DNA of 6,094 bases, from IMG/VR virus record IMGVR_UViG_3300023487_000043, positions 1 through 6,094 of that record; one strand, given 5' to 3'. Position numbers and translations under genes: made by a program. Shown here in pieces: positions 1,297 to 5,583 of this stretch. This DNA is from a virus (Duplodnaviria; Heunggongvirae; Uroviricota; Caudoviricetes). The notes below the pieces were generated by a model, which worked only from the letters and a program-made list of their open reading frames with translations, had not been told where the DNA came from and made no database searches. Numbering within the stretch: position 1 is the first letter of the stretch; every line of letters begins with the position of its first letter.

Positions 1297-1596
1297 TCAA
1301 ATAAGTGGTTTGCTGCCTAATTTCATTTTCTGGCGACCAACACAAGTCACACCCATTTCACTGCGTGGCTTGCTGTAGTAAATACGGTTCTGTTTACGCT
1401 CGACTTCTTCTGCCTTCTTGCAGCGAAGGCTTCCGAGTGATGCTGCTTTATCTGCTCTGACGCAACCAGAGAGCTTTAGCGCAATTTTTCGCGCCAGTCG
1501 CTGCTCTTGCATTGCCTGCTCACGTTGAGCCTGTCTGCGTGCTCTGCGGCGATTTCTGGCGTTATCGTCAGCCAGATATGTAATGACTACTGTCAT
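1297..1596 (-). CDS. N-like transcription antiterminator (P22 gene 24 / lambda N family)
   Basis: 99 aa. N-terminal MTVVITY followed by an arginine-rich motif NARNRRRARRQAQREQ typical of N-family boxB-binding peptides. First gene downstream of pL/nutL. GGAGG 5 nt upstream of the ATG. Confidence 0.7.
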   Translation of the reverse strand: MTVVITYLADDNARNRRRARRQAQREQAMQEQRLARKIALKLSGCVRADKAASLGSLRCKKAEEVERKQNRIYYSKPRSEMGVTCVGRQKMKLGSKPLI

Positions 1597-1703: not shown

Positions 1704-1744
1704 TCCCGCATTTCGGCGGGACAATCCCATCAATGTTAAAGAGC
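1704..1744 (-). promoter_or_regulatory. nutL (boxA + boxB)
   Basis: Minus strand reads GCTCTTTAACA (boxA, plus 1734-1744), a 12-nt spacer, then hairpin UCCCGC-CGAAAU-GCGGGA (plus 1704-1721). The same boxA and an identical boxB recur at nutR. Confidence 0.6.
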
Positions 1745-1910: not shown

Positions 1911-2561
1911 TTATGGAAGGTTTGCTAGTTTTGCATCGACAACTACGCCGATGATTTTGCAGTTTCCGTTGATCTCGATCATCGGATATTGTGGGTTAAG
2001 TGGTTTTAGAAACTTCCTGCCTGCATCAATAACTAACTTCTTGAAAGTTGCCTCGTTTTCTCCTTCGAGCTTTGCAACTACCAGTTTCCCGTTACGCGGC
2101 TCTACTTCAGGATCGACGAGTATTATCATTCCTTCAGGGATACTGAGACCGGCCGGAGCCGTCATTGAGTCTCCCTTCACATCCAACCAAAACGAATCTT
2201 CTGAACAGTCTACGGTTGTATCGTACCAGTTATCTATTGCACGCTTATGATATGGTTCTACAGCTTCCATCCAGCATCCTGCGCTCACCCAGCTAATCAG
2301 AGGGTATGACCCTCTTGGATCATGCCTACTGTGATAGGCAATGTTTGAAAGACTTTCCTCTCCTTTCATCAGATAGTCAGGGGAACACTTCAACGCATTA
2401 GCCAGGGCGAGAAGATTCTCTCCATTTGGCTCTGTCTCAGAGCGTTCCCACTGAGATATGGCAACATTAGACACGCCGACCATCTTTCCAAGTGCGGCCT
2501 GCCTGATCTTGAGTTCTTTTCTCCGAGCGCGAATGCGCTCTCCCATCAATTGAGTTTTCAT
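1911..2561 (-). CDS. c2: Prophage repressor, P22 c2-type (N-terminal HTH, C-terminal S24/LexA-like autopeptidase)
   Basis: 216 aa. Near-identical by recollection to P22 C2 (MKTQLMGERIRARRKELKIRQAALGKMVGVSNVAISQWERSE...). C-terminal GDSM serine motif. Divergent from cro across an operator region. Confidence 0.93.
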   Translation of the reverse strand: MKTQLMGERIRARRKELKIRQAALGKMVGVSNVAISQWERSETEPNGENLLALANALKCSPDYLMKGEESLSNIAYHSRHDPRGSYPLISWVSAGCWMEAVEPYHKRAIDNWYDTTVDCSEDSFWLDVKGDSMTAPAGLSIPEGMIILVDPEVEPRNGKLVVAKLEGENEATFKKLVIDAGRKFLKPLNPQYPMIEINGNCKIIGVVVDAKLANLP

Positions 2562-2834: not shown

Positions 2835-2877
2835 GCTCTTTAACAGTCATGGTCCTCATTCCCGCCGAAATGCGGGA
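2835..2877 (+). promoter_or_regulatory. nutR (boxA + boxB)
   Basis: GCTCTTTAACA (2835-2845), 14-nt spacer, hairpin TCCCGC-CGAAAT-GCGGGA (2860-2877), identical to the nutL boxB. Confidence 0.65.
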
Positions 2878-2917: not shown

Positions 2918-2958
2918 TTAAGGAAATACTTACATATGGTTCGTGCAAACAAACGCAA
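2918..2958 (-). promoter_or_regulatory. pRE with CII-binding TTGC-N6-TTGC repeats
   Basis: Minus strand TTGCGTTTGTTTGC (plus 2945-2958) overlaps the first cII codons; -10-like AAGTAT (plus 2926-2931). Matches the lambda pRE arrangement by recollection. Points leftward through cro toward c2. Confidence 0.65.
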
Positions 2959-3229
2959 CGAGGCTCTAAGAATCGAGAGTGCGTTGCTTAACAAAATCGC
3001 AATGCTTGGAACTGAGAAGACAGCGGAAGCTGTGGGAGTTGATAAGTCGCAGATCAGCAGGTGGAAGAGGGATTGGATTCCAAAGTTCTCAATGCTGCTT
3101 GCTGTTCTTGAATGGGGCGTCGTCGACGACGACATGGCTCGATTGGCACGACAAGTTGCTTCGATTCTCACCAATAAAAAACGCCCGGCGGCAACCGAGC
3201 GTTCTGAACAAATCCAGATGGAATTCTGA
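2936..3229 (+). CDS. cII: CII transcriptional activator (lambda-type)
   Basis: 97 aa MVRANKRNEALRIESALLNKIAMLGTEKTAEAVGVDKSQISRWKRDWIPKFSMLLAVLEWGVVDDDMARLARQVASILTNKKRPAATERSEQIQMEF, essentially identical to lambda CII by recollection. The ORF-track start at 2849 is an upstream frame extension. Confidence 0.92.
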   Translation: MVRANKRNEALRIESALLNKIAMLGTEKTAEAVGVDKSQISRWKRDWIPKFSMLLAVLEWGVVDDDMARLARQVASILTNKKRPAATERSEQIQMEF

Positions 3230-3251
3230 GGTAATTACTGGATCAATCCAC
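3176..3251 (-). ncRNA. OOP-like antisense RNA (terminator present, promoter uncertain)
   Basis: Minus strand CGCUCGG-UUGCCG-CCGGGCG followed by UUUUUU (plus 3182-3201, A-run 3176-3181) inside the cII 3' end, as in lambda OOP. The 5' end is inferred by analogy at about 3251. Confidence 0.45.
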
Positions 3252-3261
3252 AGGAGTAATT

Positions 3262-3906
3262 ATGACATACGAAAATGACAAATTCCAGGTTCTGAAGAGC
3301 ATGAAGGTGCCAGATGATTTTAAATCAAATGGCTTTGTTTATGTGCTTTCGAATGAGTGCATGCCAGGAATTTATAAGATTGGGATGACTAAGCATTCAC
3401 CAGAAGTTAGGGCTAAAGAAATTTCAGCCTCTACTGGCGTTCCTAAGCCATTTAAGGTGATAGCAGCCTTTCATTCAAATAATCCAGCATCAGATGAAAA
3501 ACTCATTCATAAAGCCTTTGCAAAAGAGAGGCTTAGTGATAATCGAGAGTTTTTCAAGCTTGAAGATAATGAGCTTTCTGAATCTCTAAATGAAATAAGG
3601 GCGCTGGTTGGCCCTGAAAGAAATGGCGAGACGGCAGAATACGCAATTTACGACGCATTCATTTCTTTTCGCCATGAAAATGAGCTTGATCTTAATGAGG
3701 AGCTTATAGAGCAAGGTCTGGGTAGTGTAGTTGGTCATCTTCCTGCGGTGAAAAATTTCCTTATTCGCGCCGGAATTGATTACGCGAAGCAACTGATAAG
3801 CAAATATAACTCATCGATAGTTATTAATACAGATGGCAGTGTGGTGATGGTTAAGTCTCTTGAAGCCCAATGCTTTGATGCGGAGGTTGGAAATGAGCCT
3901 GGCTGA
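3262..3906 (+). CDS. T5orf172 / GIY-YIG-like domain protein (214 aa) with uncharacterised C-terminal half
   Basis: AGGAG (3253-3257) then ATG 3262. Motifs GFVYVLSN...PGIYKIGMT...EVRAKE...PFKV...EKLIHKAF...NREFF match the T5orf172 pattern. AT-richer than flanking genes by eye. Sits between cII and the O-like gene. Confidence 0.7.
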   Translation: MTYENDKFQVLKSMKVPDDFKSNGFVYVLSNECMPGIYKIGMTKHSPEVRAKEISASTGVPKPFKVIAAFHSNNPASDEKLIHKAFAKERLSDNREFFKLEDNELSESLNEIRALVGPERNGETAEYAIYDAFISFRHENELDLNEELIEQGLGSVVGHLPAVKNFLIRAGIDYAKQLISKYNSSIVINTDGSVVMVKSLEAQCFDAEVGNEPG

Positions 3907-4735
3907 AGTATTTTACCTGCCGAAGAGTGAACCTGTTGAACAGGAGCGAAGAGTGGCTGATATCGATGATGGTTACACCAGATTCGCTAACGAGCTGCTG
4001 GAAGCTATCGCAAGTGCCGATTTAACCGCTCGCCAGTTGAAAGTTATGCTGGCCTACGTCCGGAAAACATATGGCTTCAATAAGAAAACAGATCGAATAG
4101 CCGATGAGCAAATTGCTCAGTTAACAGGACTGTCAAGGCAGAATGTTAACAAGGCTAAAAAAGAACTGATTTCAATGAATTGCCTGTTTATGGATGGAAA
4201 TCAAATCGGTGTAAACAGGGAGGTATCTGCGTGGCAATTCAGCAAGTGTCTCCAAGTTAGCAACTTTGTCTCGAAGTTAGAGACAAAAAGTGTCTCCAAA
4301 TTAGAGACACTCAATGTCTCGAAGTTAGAGACACACAAAAGACATTCTTTAAAGACAAAAGAAAATATTAATAAACCCCCTATATCCCCCAAAAAAGTTT
4401 CTCAGAAGTTCGACCCGCTAGAAACAGAGTTGCCTGATTGGTTATCAGCAGAAACATGGTTGTCGTGGGTTACCTATCGCAAGGAGATAGGTAAGTCGAT
4501 CAAGTCTAAGCAAAGTGTCACTCAGGCTATCAACGTTCTATGCAGAAGTCTGGAGAAGGGATATACACCTGAAGAAATTATAAACCAGAGCATCGCCAGT
4601 GGTTGGCAGGGTATTTTTGAGCCCAAGACTCCAAAGGGGAAATCTCAACCGAGGCCGCAGCATCGAGCTATGCAGGAAAACTTTGCCACCAAAGATTACG
4701 GACAAACTGAAATGCCTTCATGGGCGCAGGAGTGA
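3893..4735 (+). CDS. Replication initiator, lambda O-like (280 aa from ATG 3893)
   Basis: QERRVADIDDGYTRFANELLEA...RQLKVMLAYVRKTYGFNKKTDRI aligns with the lambda O N-terminal domain (QERNVADLDDGYARLSNMLLEA...). GGAGG 6 nt before ATG 3893. Iterons lie mid-gene. The upstream TTG (3860) and ATG (3878) lack an SD. Confidence 0.85.
   Translation: MSLAEVFYLPKSEPVEQERRVADIDDGYTRFANELLEAIASADLTARQLKVMLAYVRKTYGFNKKTDRIADEQIAQLTGLSRQNVNKAKKELISMNCLFMDGNQIGVNREVSAWQFSKCLQVSNFVSKLETKSVSKLETLNVSKLETHKRHSLKTKENINKPPISPKKVSQKFDPLETELPDWLSAETWLSWVTYRKEIGKSIKSKQSVTQAINVLCRSLEKGYTPEEIINQSIASGWQGIFEPKTPKGKSQPRPQHRAMQENFATKDYGQTEMPSWAQE
4247..4400. repeat. Replication origin: four iterons plus AT-rich region inside the O-like gene
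   Basis: 17-bp iterons at 4248-4264 (GTCTCCAAGTTAGCAAC), 4268-4284 and 4316-4332 (GTCTCGAAGTTAGAGAC), 4292-4308 (GTCTCCAAATTAGAGAC), each with GTCTC/GAGAC dyad ends. Followed by an A/T-rich tract 4333-4400. Confidence 0.8.
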
Positions 4736-4737
4736 AC

Positions 4738-5583
4738 ATGACGCTGGATGAAAAGATCTCCCAACTGGAGAAAAAACTTGCAGAATTGAGTTCTCCGCCA
4801 ATTGCTATCGAGCATACAGCTGTAGAAATTGGCACTGGCATCTGTGAAAAACATGGTGAGTTTGAGCAGCGTAACCGTTACTCGACTGGGCCAATTAAGT
4901 TTGCCTCAAGACCTAGCGAATGCCCGGAATGCATGAGAGATGAGCTTATTCGGCTACAGGCAGAGAAGATTAAAATCGACGAGGAATCACGTAAGCGCAA
5001 TGTCGAGTTTCTGTTGAATAATCTTGATATTCCTGAACGATTCAAGGGTTGCACACTACAGAACTACGAGCCAGTCAACGACGATGCAAAGAGAGTGCTC
5101 AGGGTGTGTCAGGCATACGCCAGCAAATGGCCTGAGAGGTTACAGAAAGGCGGTGGGCTGGTTATGTGTGGAAAGCCTGGTACTGGAAAGAATCATCTTG
5201 CACTGGCTATCGCCCGGCACGCAATTACGGAACATCAAAGCTCAGCTATTTTCACAACGGCGCTGAAAATTGCCAGAGAATATAAATCAACATGGTCGAA
5301 AAACTCCACCCGCACAGAGGATGAAGTGATCCGACAGTTCACTAAACCTGACCTGCTAATTATCGATGAGGTTGGTGTGCAGTTCGGAAGCGAGGCGGAA
5401 AAGATGATCATGTTCGAAATCATCAACACCCGCTACGAGCGCATGAAGCCAACAATCCTGATTAGCAACCAGAGCAAAGATGAACTGTCTGCATTCATTG
5501 GTGAGCGTGTTATTGACAGGATGAATGATGGCGGCGGATGCACCCTTGCGTTTACATGGGATAGTTACAGGAGCAGAACGTGA
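4738..5583 (+). CDS. DnaC-like helicase loader (AAA+ ATPase, IstB/DnaC family)
   Basis: Walker A GKPGTGKNHLALAI and Walker B LLIIDEVG. AGGAG (4728-4732) 5 nt before ATG 4738, directly after the O-like stop (4733-4735). The ORF-track start at 4720 has no SD. N-terminal Cys/His cluster (CEKH...CPEC). Confidence 0.85.
   Translation: MTLDEKISQLEKKLAELSSPPIAIEHTAVEIGTGICEKHGEFEQRNRYSTGPIKFASRPSECPECMRDELIRLQAEKIKIDEESRKRNVEFLLNNLDIPERFKGCTLQNYEPVNDDAKRVLRVCQAYASKWPERLQKGGGLVMCGKPGTGKNHLALAIARHAITEHQSSAIFTTALKIAREYKSTWSKNSTRTEDEVIRQFTKPDLLIIDEVGVQFGSEAEKMIMFEIINTRYERMKPTILISNQSKDELSAFIGERVIDRMNDGGGCTLAFTWDSYRSRT

What the first reader, a model, noticed from the sequence alone, without database searches (positions are those of the whole stretch)
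3176..3300. OOP antisense terminator retained but its promoter region rewritten
The OOP-type terminator hairpin and U-run inside the cII 3' end are intact. By lambda analogy the pO -10 would fall near 3258-3263 (minus-strand ATAATT/CATAAT) and the -35 inside the first codons of the downstream gene. Those codons now belong to the T5orf172 ORF. The best minus-strand -35 candidates are TTGTCA (spacer too short, about 11-13 nt) or a weak TGGAAT at 17 nt. Antisense control of cII may therefore be altered.
Basis: partly seen in the sequence, partly recalled or inferred. Interest (0 to 1): 0.4.

Follow-up and report, generated by a model that had tools for sequence, protein, structure and literature searches.

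The report
Ordinary OOP antisense unit at mosaic joint
This is the well-known OOP antisense-RNA unit of lambda-like phages: a standard module swap replaced only the upstream (-35) part of its promoter, as in most relatives, so it is ordinary and probably still works.

Summary
The OOP terminator (3205..3178, minus strand) is base-for-base that of lambda. The OOP-equivalent RNA (3251..3175) differs from lambda's at 4 of 77 positions. The -10 CATAAT (3264..3259) and its TG extension (3267..3266) are kept. The lambda -35 TTGAGT is replaced by TGGAAT (3287..3282, 3/6), inside a T5orf172 gene.

The break at 3267 is the right edge of a conserved linker (3237-3267) already described as common to lambdoid phages. 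In 267 loci this linker joins at least 5 cII/terminator types to about 10 downstream gene types. Lambda's own -35 is the minority form.

Across six apparently unrelated downstream gene families, the first three -35 bases stay T-(G/T)-G at a 17-nt spacer. All 29 T5orf172-type loci keep a minus-strand hairpin and T-run.

P22 and BTP1 carry TGGTCA at this position and both produce a detected OOP RNA.

Most likely pO still works here as an extended -10 promoter with a weak "TGG" -35. A change in its strength cannot be excluded. Novelty and interest are low.

The parts
2936..3229 (+). cII gene (97 aa). Its last 55 nt, stop codon included, are overlapped by the antisense RNA.
   Evidence: PF05269 E=1.7e-48; 96.6-98.9% identical to lambda/434/HK633 cII DNA
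3175..3251 (-). OOP-equivalent antisense RNA, 77 nt by lambda analogy (+1 = 3251, 3' end about 3175)
   Evidence: 4 differences from lambda OOP and the same two-hairpin fold. The ends are inferred from lambda, not measured.
3176..3205 (-). tO intrinsic terminator: hairpin 3205..3178 plus T-run (plus-strand A-run 3176-3181)
   Evidence: sequence identical to lambda tO
3237..3267 (.). Conserved lambdoid linker ACTGGATCAATCCACAGGAGTAATTATGACA, the mosaic joint. It holds OOP +1, a GATC, a CTG-N10-CAG motif, the SD and ATG of the downstream gene, and the pO -10 with its TG.
   Evidence: Lambda-type homology ends at 3267 and Bas106 homology starts at 3237. 100% identical over 31 bp in 86 further phage records. 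Published as a 33-bp conserved sequence (PMC3349717).
3238..3253 (.). CTGGATCAATCCACAG: CTG-N10-CAG, a LexA-box-like motif across OOP +1. It contains ATCCACA (3246-3252), which resembles a DnaA-box core.
   Evidence: Read from the sequence. A LexA site within oop-pO is cited in PMC5869508, and DnaA boxes downstream of pO in PMC3985674. Placing them on this motif is my inference.
3259..3264 (-). pO -10 hexamer CATAAT
   Evidence: Same hexamer as lambda. The lambda pO- mutation lies in this hexamer, 2 bp from the O start codon (PMC3985674).
3266..3267 (-). TG of an extended -10 (TGTCATAAT)
   Evidence: Read from the sequence. The scan flags 'TG yes' for the same bases in lambda and BTP1.
3282..3287 (-). 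-35-position hexamer TGGAAT (17-nt spacer, 3/6 to TTGACA). It belongs to the TGGnnn class shared by most non-lambda modules.
3285..3289 (.). CCAGG (a Dcm-type CCWGG site), found at the identical offset from the ATG in 202 of 267 linker loci
3262..3906 (+). T5orf172/MUG113 (GIY-YIG-like) gene in the variable 'orf' slot between oop and O
   Evidence: PF10544 E=1.4e-15, PF13455 E=5.7e-16; RefSeq annotates its homologues as 'GIY-YIG nuclease family protein'
3893..4735 (+). O-like replication initiator with four 19-nt iterons (4247-4333)
   Evidence: PF04492 E=4.3e-36; iterons

Best explanation
The region is a normal lambdoid cII-oop-pO unit sitting on a module boundary.

How it arose: homologous recombination within the conserved 31-bp linker (3237-3267) joined a lambda-type cII/OOP body to a module that begins with a T5orf172 gene in the 'orf' slot upstream of O.

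What was kept: the linker carries the OOP start, the -10 hexamer CATAAT and its TG extension, so these came through intact. Only the -35 is supplied by the incoming gene. It is TGGAAT, a member of the TGGnnn class used by most lambdoid phages.

How it works (inferred): sigma-70 RNA polymerase initiates leftward at about 3251 from an extended -10 promoter with a weak -35. It terminates at tO near 3175. The 77-nt RNA pairs with the 3' end of cII mRNA and lowers cII expression, as in lambda.

Shown here: the sequence anatomy, the mosaic joint, and the conservation across loci. Inferred: that pO fires here, its strength, and the downstream RNase III-type effect.
For: 1. Joint mapping. Lambda, 434 and HK633 match up to 3267, and Bas106 matches from 3237.

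2. Combinatorial mosaic. The linker joins at least 5 cII-3'/terminator types to about 10 downstream types in 267 loci. The T5orf172 type occurs on 4-5 different cII ends.

3. Retained OOP unit. 29 of 29 T5orf172-type loci, and 264 of 266 loci overall, keep a stable minus-strand hairpin plus T-run 61-79 nt from the predicted +1, even though the terminator sequences are unrelated.

4. -35 conservation. The plus-strand C[AC]A at columns 24-26 after the ATG (minus-strand T[GT]G, the first three -35 bases at a 17-nt spacer) is invariant in representatives of six apparently unrelated gene families. A shuffle test gave such a motif anywhere in 39 of 100,000 trials, and at that exact place in 0 of 100,000.

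5. The TG extension is present. The same scan flags it in lambda and BTP1.

6. Experimental precedent for TGG-type pO. The P22 record annotates the oop promoter as TGGTCA-17-CATAAT, and P22C-oop RNA was sequenced at 1513 RPM (PMC13397905). OOP-BTP1 was detected by transcriptomics (PMC7067206), and BTP1 has the same promoter.

7. The literature already describes the 33-bp conserved sequence and the orf slot (PMC3349717).
Against: - The window's -35 (TGGAAT, 3/6) is poorer than that of the two TGG-type phages with detected OOP (TGGTCA, 4/6). It fails the consensus scan that lambda and BTP1 pass.
- I found no transcript data for any T5orf172-type, HK97-type (TGGTAT) or HK022/Stx-type (TGGTAA) locus.
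- The -10 is not a perfect TATAAT.
- The representatives for the conservation test were chosen after looking at the data. One T5orf172 homologue (T8) does not fit the 17-nt frame (TGCTTT at 17 nt, TTGCTT at 18 nt).
- Some downstream types lack the TG extension.
Confidence: 0.75

Rival explanations
1. pO is effectively dead or much weaker in this recombinant. On this view the OOP body and terminator are a recent hitch-hiker of the lambda-type cII module, so cII escapes antisense control.
For: The -35 is only 3/6, no better than chance, and the scan does not call the site while it calls lambda and BTP1. The exact lambda-cII + T5orf172 joint is rare: 4 of 5426 complete E. coli genomes and 4-5 IMG/VR loci. 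The combination could therefore be young.
Against: The TG-extended -10 is intact. Every T5orf172-type locus, on 4-5 different cII 3' ends, keeps a minus-strand hairpin and T-run. The T-(G/T)-G at -36..-34 is conserved across apparently unrelated genes, which argues that the promoter is selected in all modules. From general knowledge, extended -10 promoters tolerate poor -35 elements.
Confidence: 0.15
2. The conserved linker and the downstream CCAGG/T-K-G patch are kept for reasons other than pO. Candidates are the ribosome-binding site and start codon of the slot gene, a recombination target, or shared ancestry of the first 9 codons. On this view their promoter-like look says nothing about OOP synthesis.
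For: The linker contains AGGAG-N5-ATG for the downstream gene. Three CCAGG-bearing families share a [YF]-Q at codons 8-9 and weak N-terminal similarity (T1 against T4, E=0.006 in a tiny database). CCAGG extends two bases beyond the -35 hexamer.
Against: The T-K-G is also present in lambda O, the T7 type and the N type, which lack CCAGG and lack the YQ motif. Between the ATG and the patch, T1 and T4 are only 3/12 identical, as I counted from the sequences, so generic shared ancestry is unlikely. A mutation in the -10 inside the linker inactivates lambda pO (PMC3985674). OOP is detected in P22 and BTP1.
Confidence: 0.1

Closest known systems
Lambda OOP RNA / pO / tO
   Same: Same position and orientation, antisense to the last 52 codon bases plus the stop of cII. 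Identical terminator, 73/77 identical RNA, same -10 CATAAT with TG, and the same inferred start base.
   Different: The -35 hexamer is TGGAAT instead of TTGAGT. It lies in a T5orf172 gene rather than in O.
P22 / BTP1 oop (orf48-type lambdoid phages)
   Same: Same linker, same -10 with TG, a TGGnnn -35 with CCAGG at the identical offset, and a slot gene between oop and the O-like gene. OOP was detected experimentally in both.
   Different: P22 and BTP1 have TGGTCA (4/6), a different cII-like gene (c1) and a different 62-nt OOP body and terminator. Their slot gene is the 48-aa orf48, not a 214-aa T5orf172 protein.
Phage CurroJimenez_Bas106 (PQ850599) and the prophages of E. coli strains 222, 103, JNE120393 and 2A
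   Same: Same T5orf172 slot gene and the same pO region, 99-100% identical. The four E. coli genomes also have the lambda-type cII joint.
   Different: Bas106 carries a BTP1-type cII 3' end and terminator instead of the lambda type.
Lambdoid 'boundary/linker' sequence (Clark et al. 2001 'sequence 5'; Hayes et al. 2012 Fig. S1)
   Same: Window 3237-3267 matches the published consensus ACTGGATCaATCcACAGGAGTaATTATGaCAAA over all 31 of its positions, up to ATGACA.
   Different: The last two consensus bases (AA) are not kept. The window continues with TACG.

Membership tests
Lambdoid OOP antisense RNA unit (oop/pO/tO) | [quoted passage not shown] | tested here: met
   The predicted RNA 3251..3175 overlaps cII 3175-3229. 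Lambda has a 52-base overlap (PMC5869508).
Lambdoid OOP antisense RNA unit (oop/pO/tO) | Intrinsic terminator (hairpin plus U-run) at the 3' end | tested here: met
   identical to lambda tO
Lambdoid OOP antisense RNA unit (oop/pO/tO) | Conserved 31-33 bp sequence holding the pO -10 and the OOP 5' end | tested here: met
Lambdoid OOP antisense RNA unit (oop/pO/tO) | -10 hexamer CATAAT, the site of the inactivating lambda pO- mutation | tested here: met
Lambdoid OOP antisense RNA unit (oop/pO/tO) | -35 hexamer at a 17-nt spacer with at least 4/6 match (lambda TTGAGT, P22 TGGTCA) | tested here: not met
   TGGAAT is 3/6 and the scan does not call it. It does keep the T-(G/T)-G shared by all module types.
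Lambdoid OOP antisense RNA unit (oop/pO/tO) | A transcript of about 60-80 nt is actually made, and it lowers cII expression through RNase III | not testable with these tools
   No expression data for this locus. Rfam holds no usable OOP model: the lambda control is also negative.
Extended -10 (TGn) sigma-70 promoters | TG at -15/-14, one base upstream of a good -10 hexamer | tested here: met
   TGTCATAAT at 3267..3259. Activity without a good -35 follows from general knowledge and was not tested here.
T5orf172 / GIY-YIG-like domain proteins | Pfam PF10544 match above the gathering score | tested here: met
   58.1 bits against a cut-off of 20

The most novel reading that the evidence does not exclude
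The -35 of pO is embedded in the first codons of whatever gene follows. It is nevertheless held as T-(G/T)-G in every module. In about three quarters of the sampled loci it sits in a conserved CCWGG (Dcm-type) site at -38..-34. That site could make OOP synthesis sensitive to cytosine methylation or to an unknown factor, giving 'orf-slot' phages such as this one a different input into the lysis-lysogeny decision from lambda.
Probability: 0.1. Interest if true: 0.4.

Novelty: new member of a known kind. Interest (0 to 1): 0.15.

Why it matters
It matters little for this locus. The result removes a false lead: the 'rewritten' promoter is the normal state of most lambdoid phages.

One modest general point emerges. 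A promoter element that lies inside the coding start of interchangeable genes is still conserved (T-K-G at the -35 position). This is indirect evidence that OOP-type antisense control is selected across the whole lambdoid pool, not only in lambda.

It also records a GIY-YIG/T5orf172 gene as one more occupant of the variable slot between oop and O.

Tried and rejected
- Rfam scan of the window: no hit. The lambda control was also negative, so Rfam says nothing about OOP.
- Supplements of PMC7067206, searched for the mapped 5' end of OOP-BTP1: nothing held.
- NC_002371 fetched at the coordinates given in the P22 sRNA paper: the numbering differs. BK000583 was used instead.
- IMG/VR scan for linkers followed by ATGACB: no hits.
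- A literature search for direct OOP detection in Stx phages found only statements that similar sequences exist. VT2-Sakai is an orf48/TGGTAA type.
- An alternative promoter further upstream on the minus strand: the nearest scan hit is at 3939..3910, too far away to drive an OOP-sized RNA.
- TTGTCA (3281..3276) as the -35: rejected, because the spacer is 11 nt.
- An mRNA hairpin between CUGG (3238-3241) and CCAG (3285-3288) as the reason for the conserved CCAGG: rejected by inspection. Only 4-5 pairs form across a loop of about 43 nt, and they do not extend in the other module types.
- No quantitative promoter-strength model was available offline. I did not invent one.

Full report
**Context.** The window is a lambdoid immunity and replication region:
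- LexA-like repressor, 1911-2561, minus strand
- P22-type cro, 2642-2827
- cII, 2936-3229 (PF05269)
- T5orf172/MUG113 ORF, 3262-3906 (PF10544)
- O-like initiator, 3893-4735
- DnaC-like loader, 4738-5583

**Observation.**
- The scan finds a minus-strand hairpin at 3205..3178 followed by a T-run. It is identical in sequence to lambda tO found by the same scan.
- By lambda analogy OOP would start at 3251 and end near 3175. This 77-mer differs from lambda OOP at four positions and folds into the same two hairpins (an earlier fold offset by one base gave z = -3.4).
- CATAAT lies at 3264..3259.
- With a 17-nt spacer the -35 position reads TGGAAT (3287..3282, 3/6).
- TTGTCA (3281..3276) has an 11-nt spacer.
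- As controls, the same scan calls lambda pO (TTGAGT-17-CATAAT, TG yes) and BTP1 pO (TGGTCA-17-CATAAT, TG yes). It does not call the window's pO or that of HK633. The loss of a consensus-grade -35 is therefore real.

**What the 'rewriting' is.**
- Megablast shows that homology to lambda, 434, HK633 and many others stops at window 3267, directly after ATGACA. Homology to phage CurroJimenez_Bas106 starts at 3237 and runs through the T5orf172 gene into O.
- The 31 bp shared by both, ACTGGATCAATCCACAGGAGTAATTATGACA, is the joint. It is 100% identical in 86 further phage records that diverge on either side.
- This is a published feature. Hayes et al. 2012 (PMC3349717) describe a 33-bp sequence (Clark et al. 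2001 'sequence 5') conserved in 23 lambdoid phages, covering the pO promoter and the 5' end of oop.
[quoted passage not shown] Lambda is the phage that lacks the orf (orf48 in P22 and HK022, p43 in HK97).
- The window simply has a T5orf172 gene in that slot.

**Population view.**
- Five IMG/VR scans for the linker (one found nothing), plus the reference loci, gave 267 linker-bearing loci.
- The linker joins at least five cII-3'/terminator types to about ten downstream types.
- The T5orf172 type (29 loci, all identical over the first 40 nt of the gene) occurs on the BTP1/Bas106-type, TCCCCGG-type, lambda-type and lambda-variant cII ends.
- The exact lambda-cII + T5orf172 joint is found in 4 of 5426 complete E. 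coli genomes.
- A stable minus-strand hairpin plus T-run lies 61-79 nt from the predicted +1 in 29 of 29 T5orf172-type loci and in 264 of 266 loci overall. The terminator sequences themselves are unrelated between cII types.
- An OOP-like unit is therefore maintained whatever gene follows.

**The -35 position across modules.** With the 17-nt spacer the hexamers are:

| Downstream type | -35 hexamer |
|---|---|
| lambda O | TTGAGT |
| HK97-type small ORF | TGGTAT |
| orf48 of HK022 / VT2-Sakai | TGGTAA |
| orf48 of P22 / BTP1 | TGGTCA |
| T6 | TGGTAC |
| window T5orf172 | TGGAAT |
| T5 (T5orf172 homologue) | TGGTAT |
| T7 | TTGTAC, TTGTAA |
| N-type | TTGAAT |

- One exception is T8, which reads TGCTTT at 17 nt and TTGCTT at 18 nt.
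- In one representative of each of six apparently unrelated families, plus-strand columns 24 and 26 after the ATG are invariant (C and A), and column 25 is always A or C. This is T-(G/T)-G on the minus strand.
- The only other invariant column is the first base after the ATG.
- Shuffling each sequence gave such a pattern anywhere in 39 of 100,000 trials, and at that exact place in 0 of 100,000.
- The representatives were picked after inspection, so these numbers are indicative only. They still argue that the first three -35 bases are under selection inside otherwise unrelated coding sequences.
- 202 of the 267 loci carry CCAGG at the same offset. The loci came from pattern-directed scans, so this is not a population frequency.

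**Experimental anchors.**
- In lambda, a single change in the -10 (2 bp from the O start codon) inactivates pO (PMC3985674). That hexamer is intact here.
- The curated P22 record annotates the oop promoter as the 29 bp that read TGGTCA-17-CATAAT, and it annotates the oop terminator.
- A 63-nt P22 oop RNA was sequenced from infected cells at 1513 RPM (PMC13397905). Its sequence matches the RNA predicted from the linker in my set, starting 3 nt inside the lambda-analogous +1.
- OOP-BTP1 was detected by transcriptomics (PMC7067206), and BTP1 has the same promoter.
- TGG-type pO promoters therefore fire.
- I found no data for the 3/6 or 2/6 variants (TGGAAT, TGGTAA, TGGTAT). For Stx phages the literature only says that similar sequences exist.

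**Mechanism proposed.** Steps 1 and 2 are inferred from the sequence. Steps 3 and 4 are carried over from published work on lambda.
1. RNA polymerase uses the TG-extended -10 with a weak TGG-type -35 and starts leftward near 3251.
2. It terminates at tO.
3. The RNA pairs with the 3' end of cII mRNA and promotes its decay, as in lambda (Krinke and Wulff, cited).
4. Convergent transcription against pR may also modulate expression of the T5orf172-O-P operon, as proposed for lambda (PMC3985674).

The linker also keeps a GATC (3241-3244), a CTG-N10-CAG motif (3238-3253) and ATCCACA (3246-3252). A LexA site within oop-pO and DnaA boxes downstream of pO are reported for lambda. Equating them with these motifs is my inference.

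**Verdict.** This is a new member of a known kind, of low interest. The residual uncertainty is quantitative (how strong pO is here) and needs an experiment.

Noticed in passing
window 3285-3289; same offset in L002, L125, L263, L269 and 202 of 267 linker loci: CCAGG (a Dcm-type CCWGG site) lies at exactly the same distance from the slot-gene ATG in three apparently unrelated slot-gene families: the HK97-type small ORF, orf48, and T5orf172. The 12 nt between the ATG and this patch are at random-level identity. Only the first three bases are explained by the -35. The extra two conserved bases are unexplained.
   Followed up: partly
window 1704-1721 (-) and 2860-2877 (+): An identical 18-nt hairpin-forming sequence, TCCCGCCGAAATGCGGGA, occurs once leftward and once rightward of the immunity region (0 expected by chance). 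The two copies are placed like the nutL and nutR boxB sites. The ORF 1297-1596 (-) starts with an arginine-rich stretch like an N-type antiterminator.
   Followed up: partly
window 4247-4333: Four 19-nt direct repeats (TGTCTCGAAGTTAGAGACA, spacing 20-24 nt) lie inside the O-like gene. They are positioned like the ori iterons of lambda.
   Followed up: partly
L125 30567-30713 (BTP1); L269 727-870 (VT2-Sakai): The 48-aa orf48 slot gene is present but not annotated in the BTP1 and VT2-Sakai records.
   Followed up: no
L125 30582-30595; the same place in L263: In orf48-type phages the -35 of pO sits in a 14-nt palindrome, GTCCTGGTCAGGAC (GTCCTGGTAAGGAC in the HK022/Stx type). The terminator scan picked it up as a small hairpin. 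It could be a protein-binding site. It is absent from the window.
   Followed up: no
window 3893-3906: The T5orf172 ORF and the O-like ORF overlap by 14 nt (ATG at 3893, TGA at 3904-3906), which suggests translational coupling of the slot gene with O.
   Followed up: no
L265 (IMGVR_UViG_648276652_000010), around 4434-4500: One locus has the linker followed by only a 9-codon ORF (MNRPGNPGD). It is probably a decayed or truncated prophage joint.
   Followed up: no
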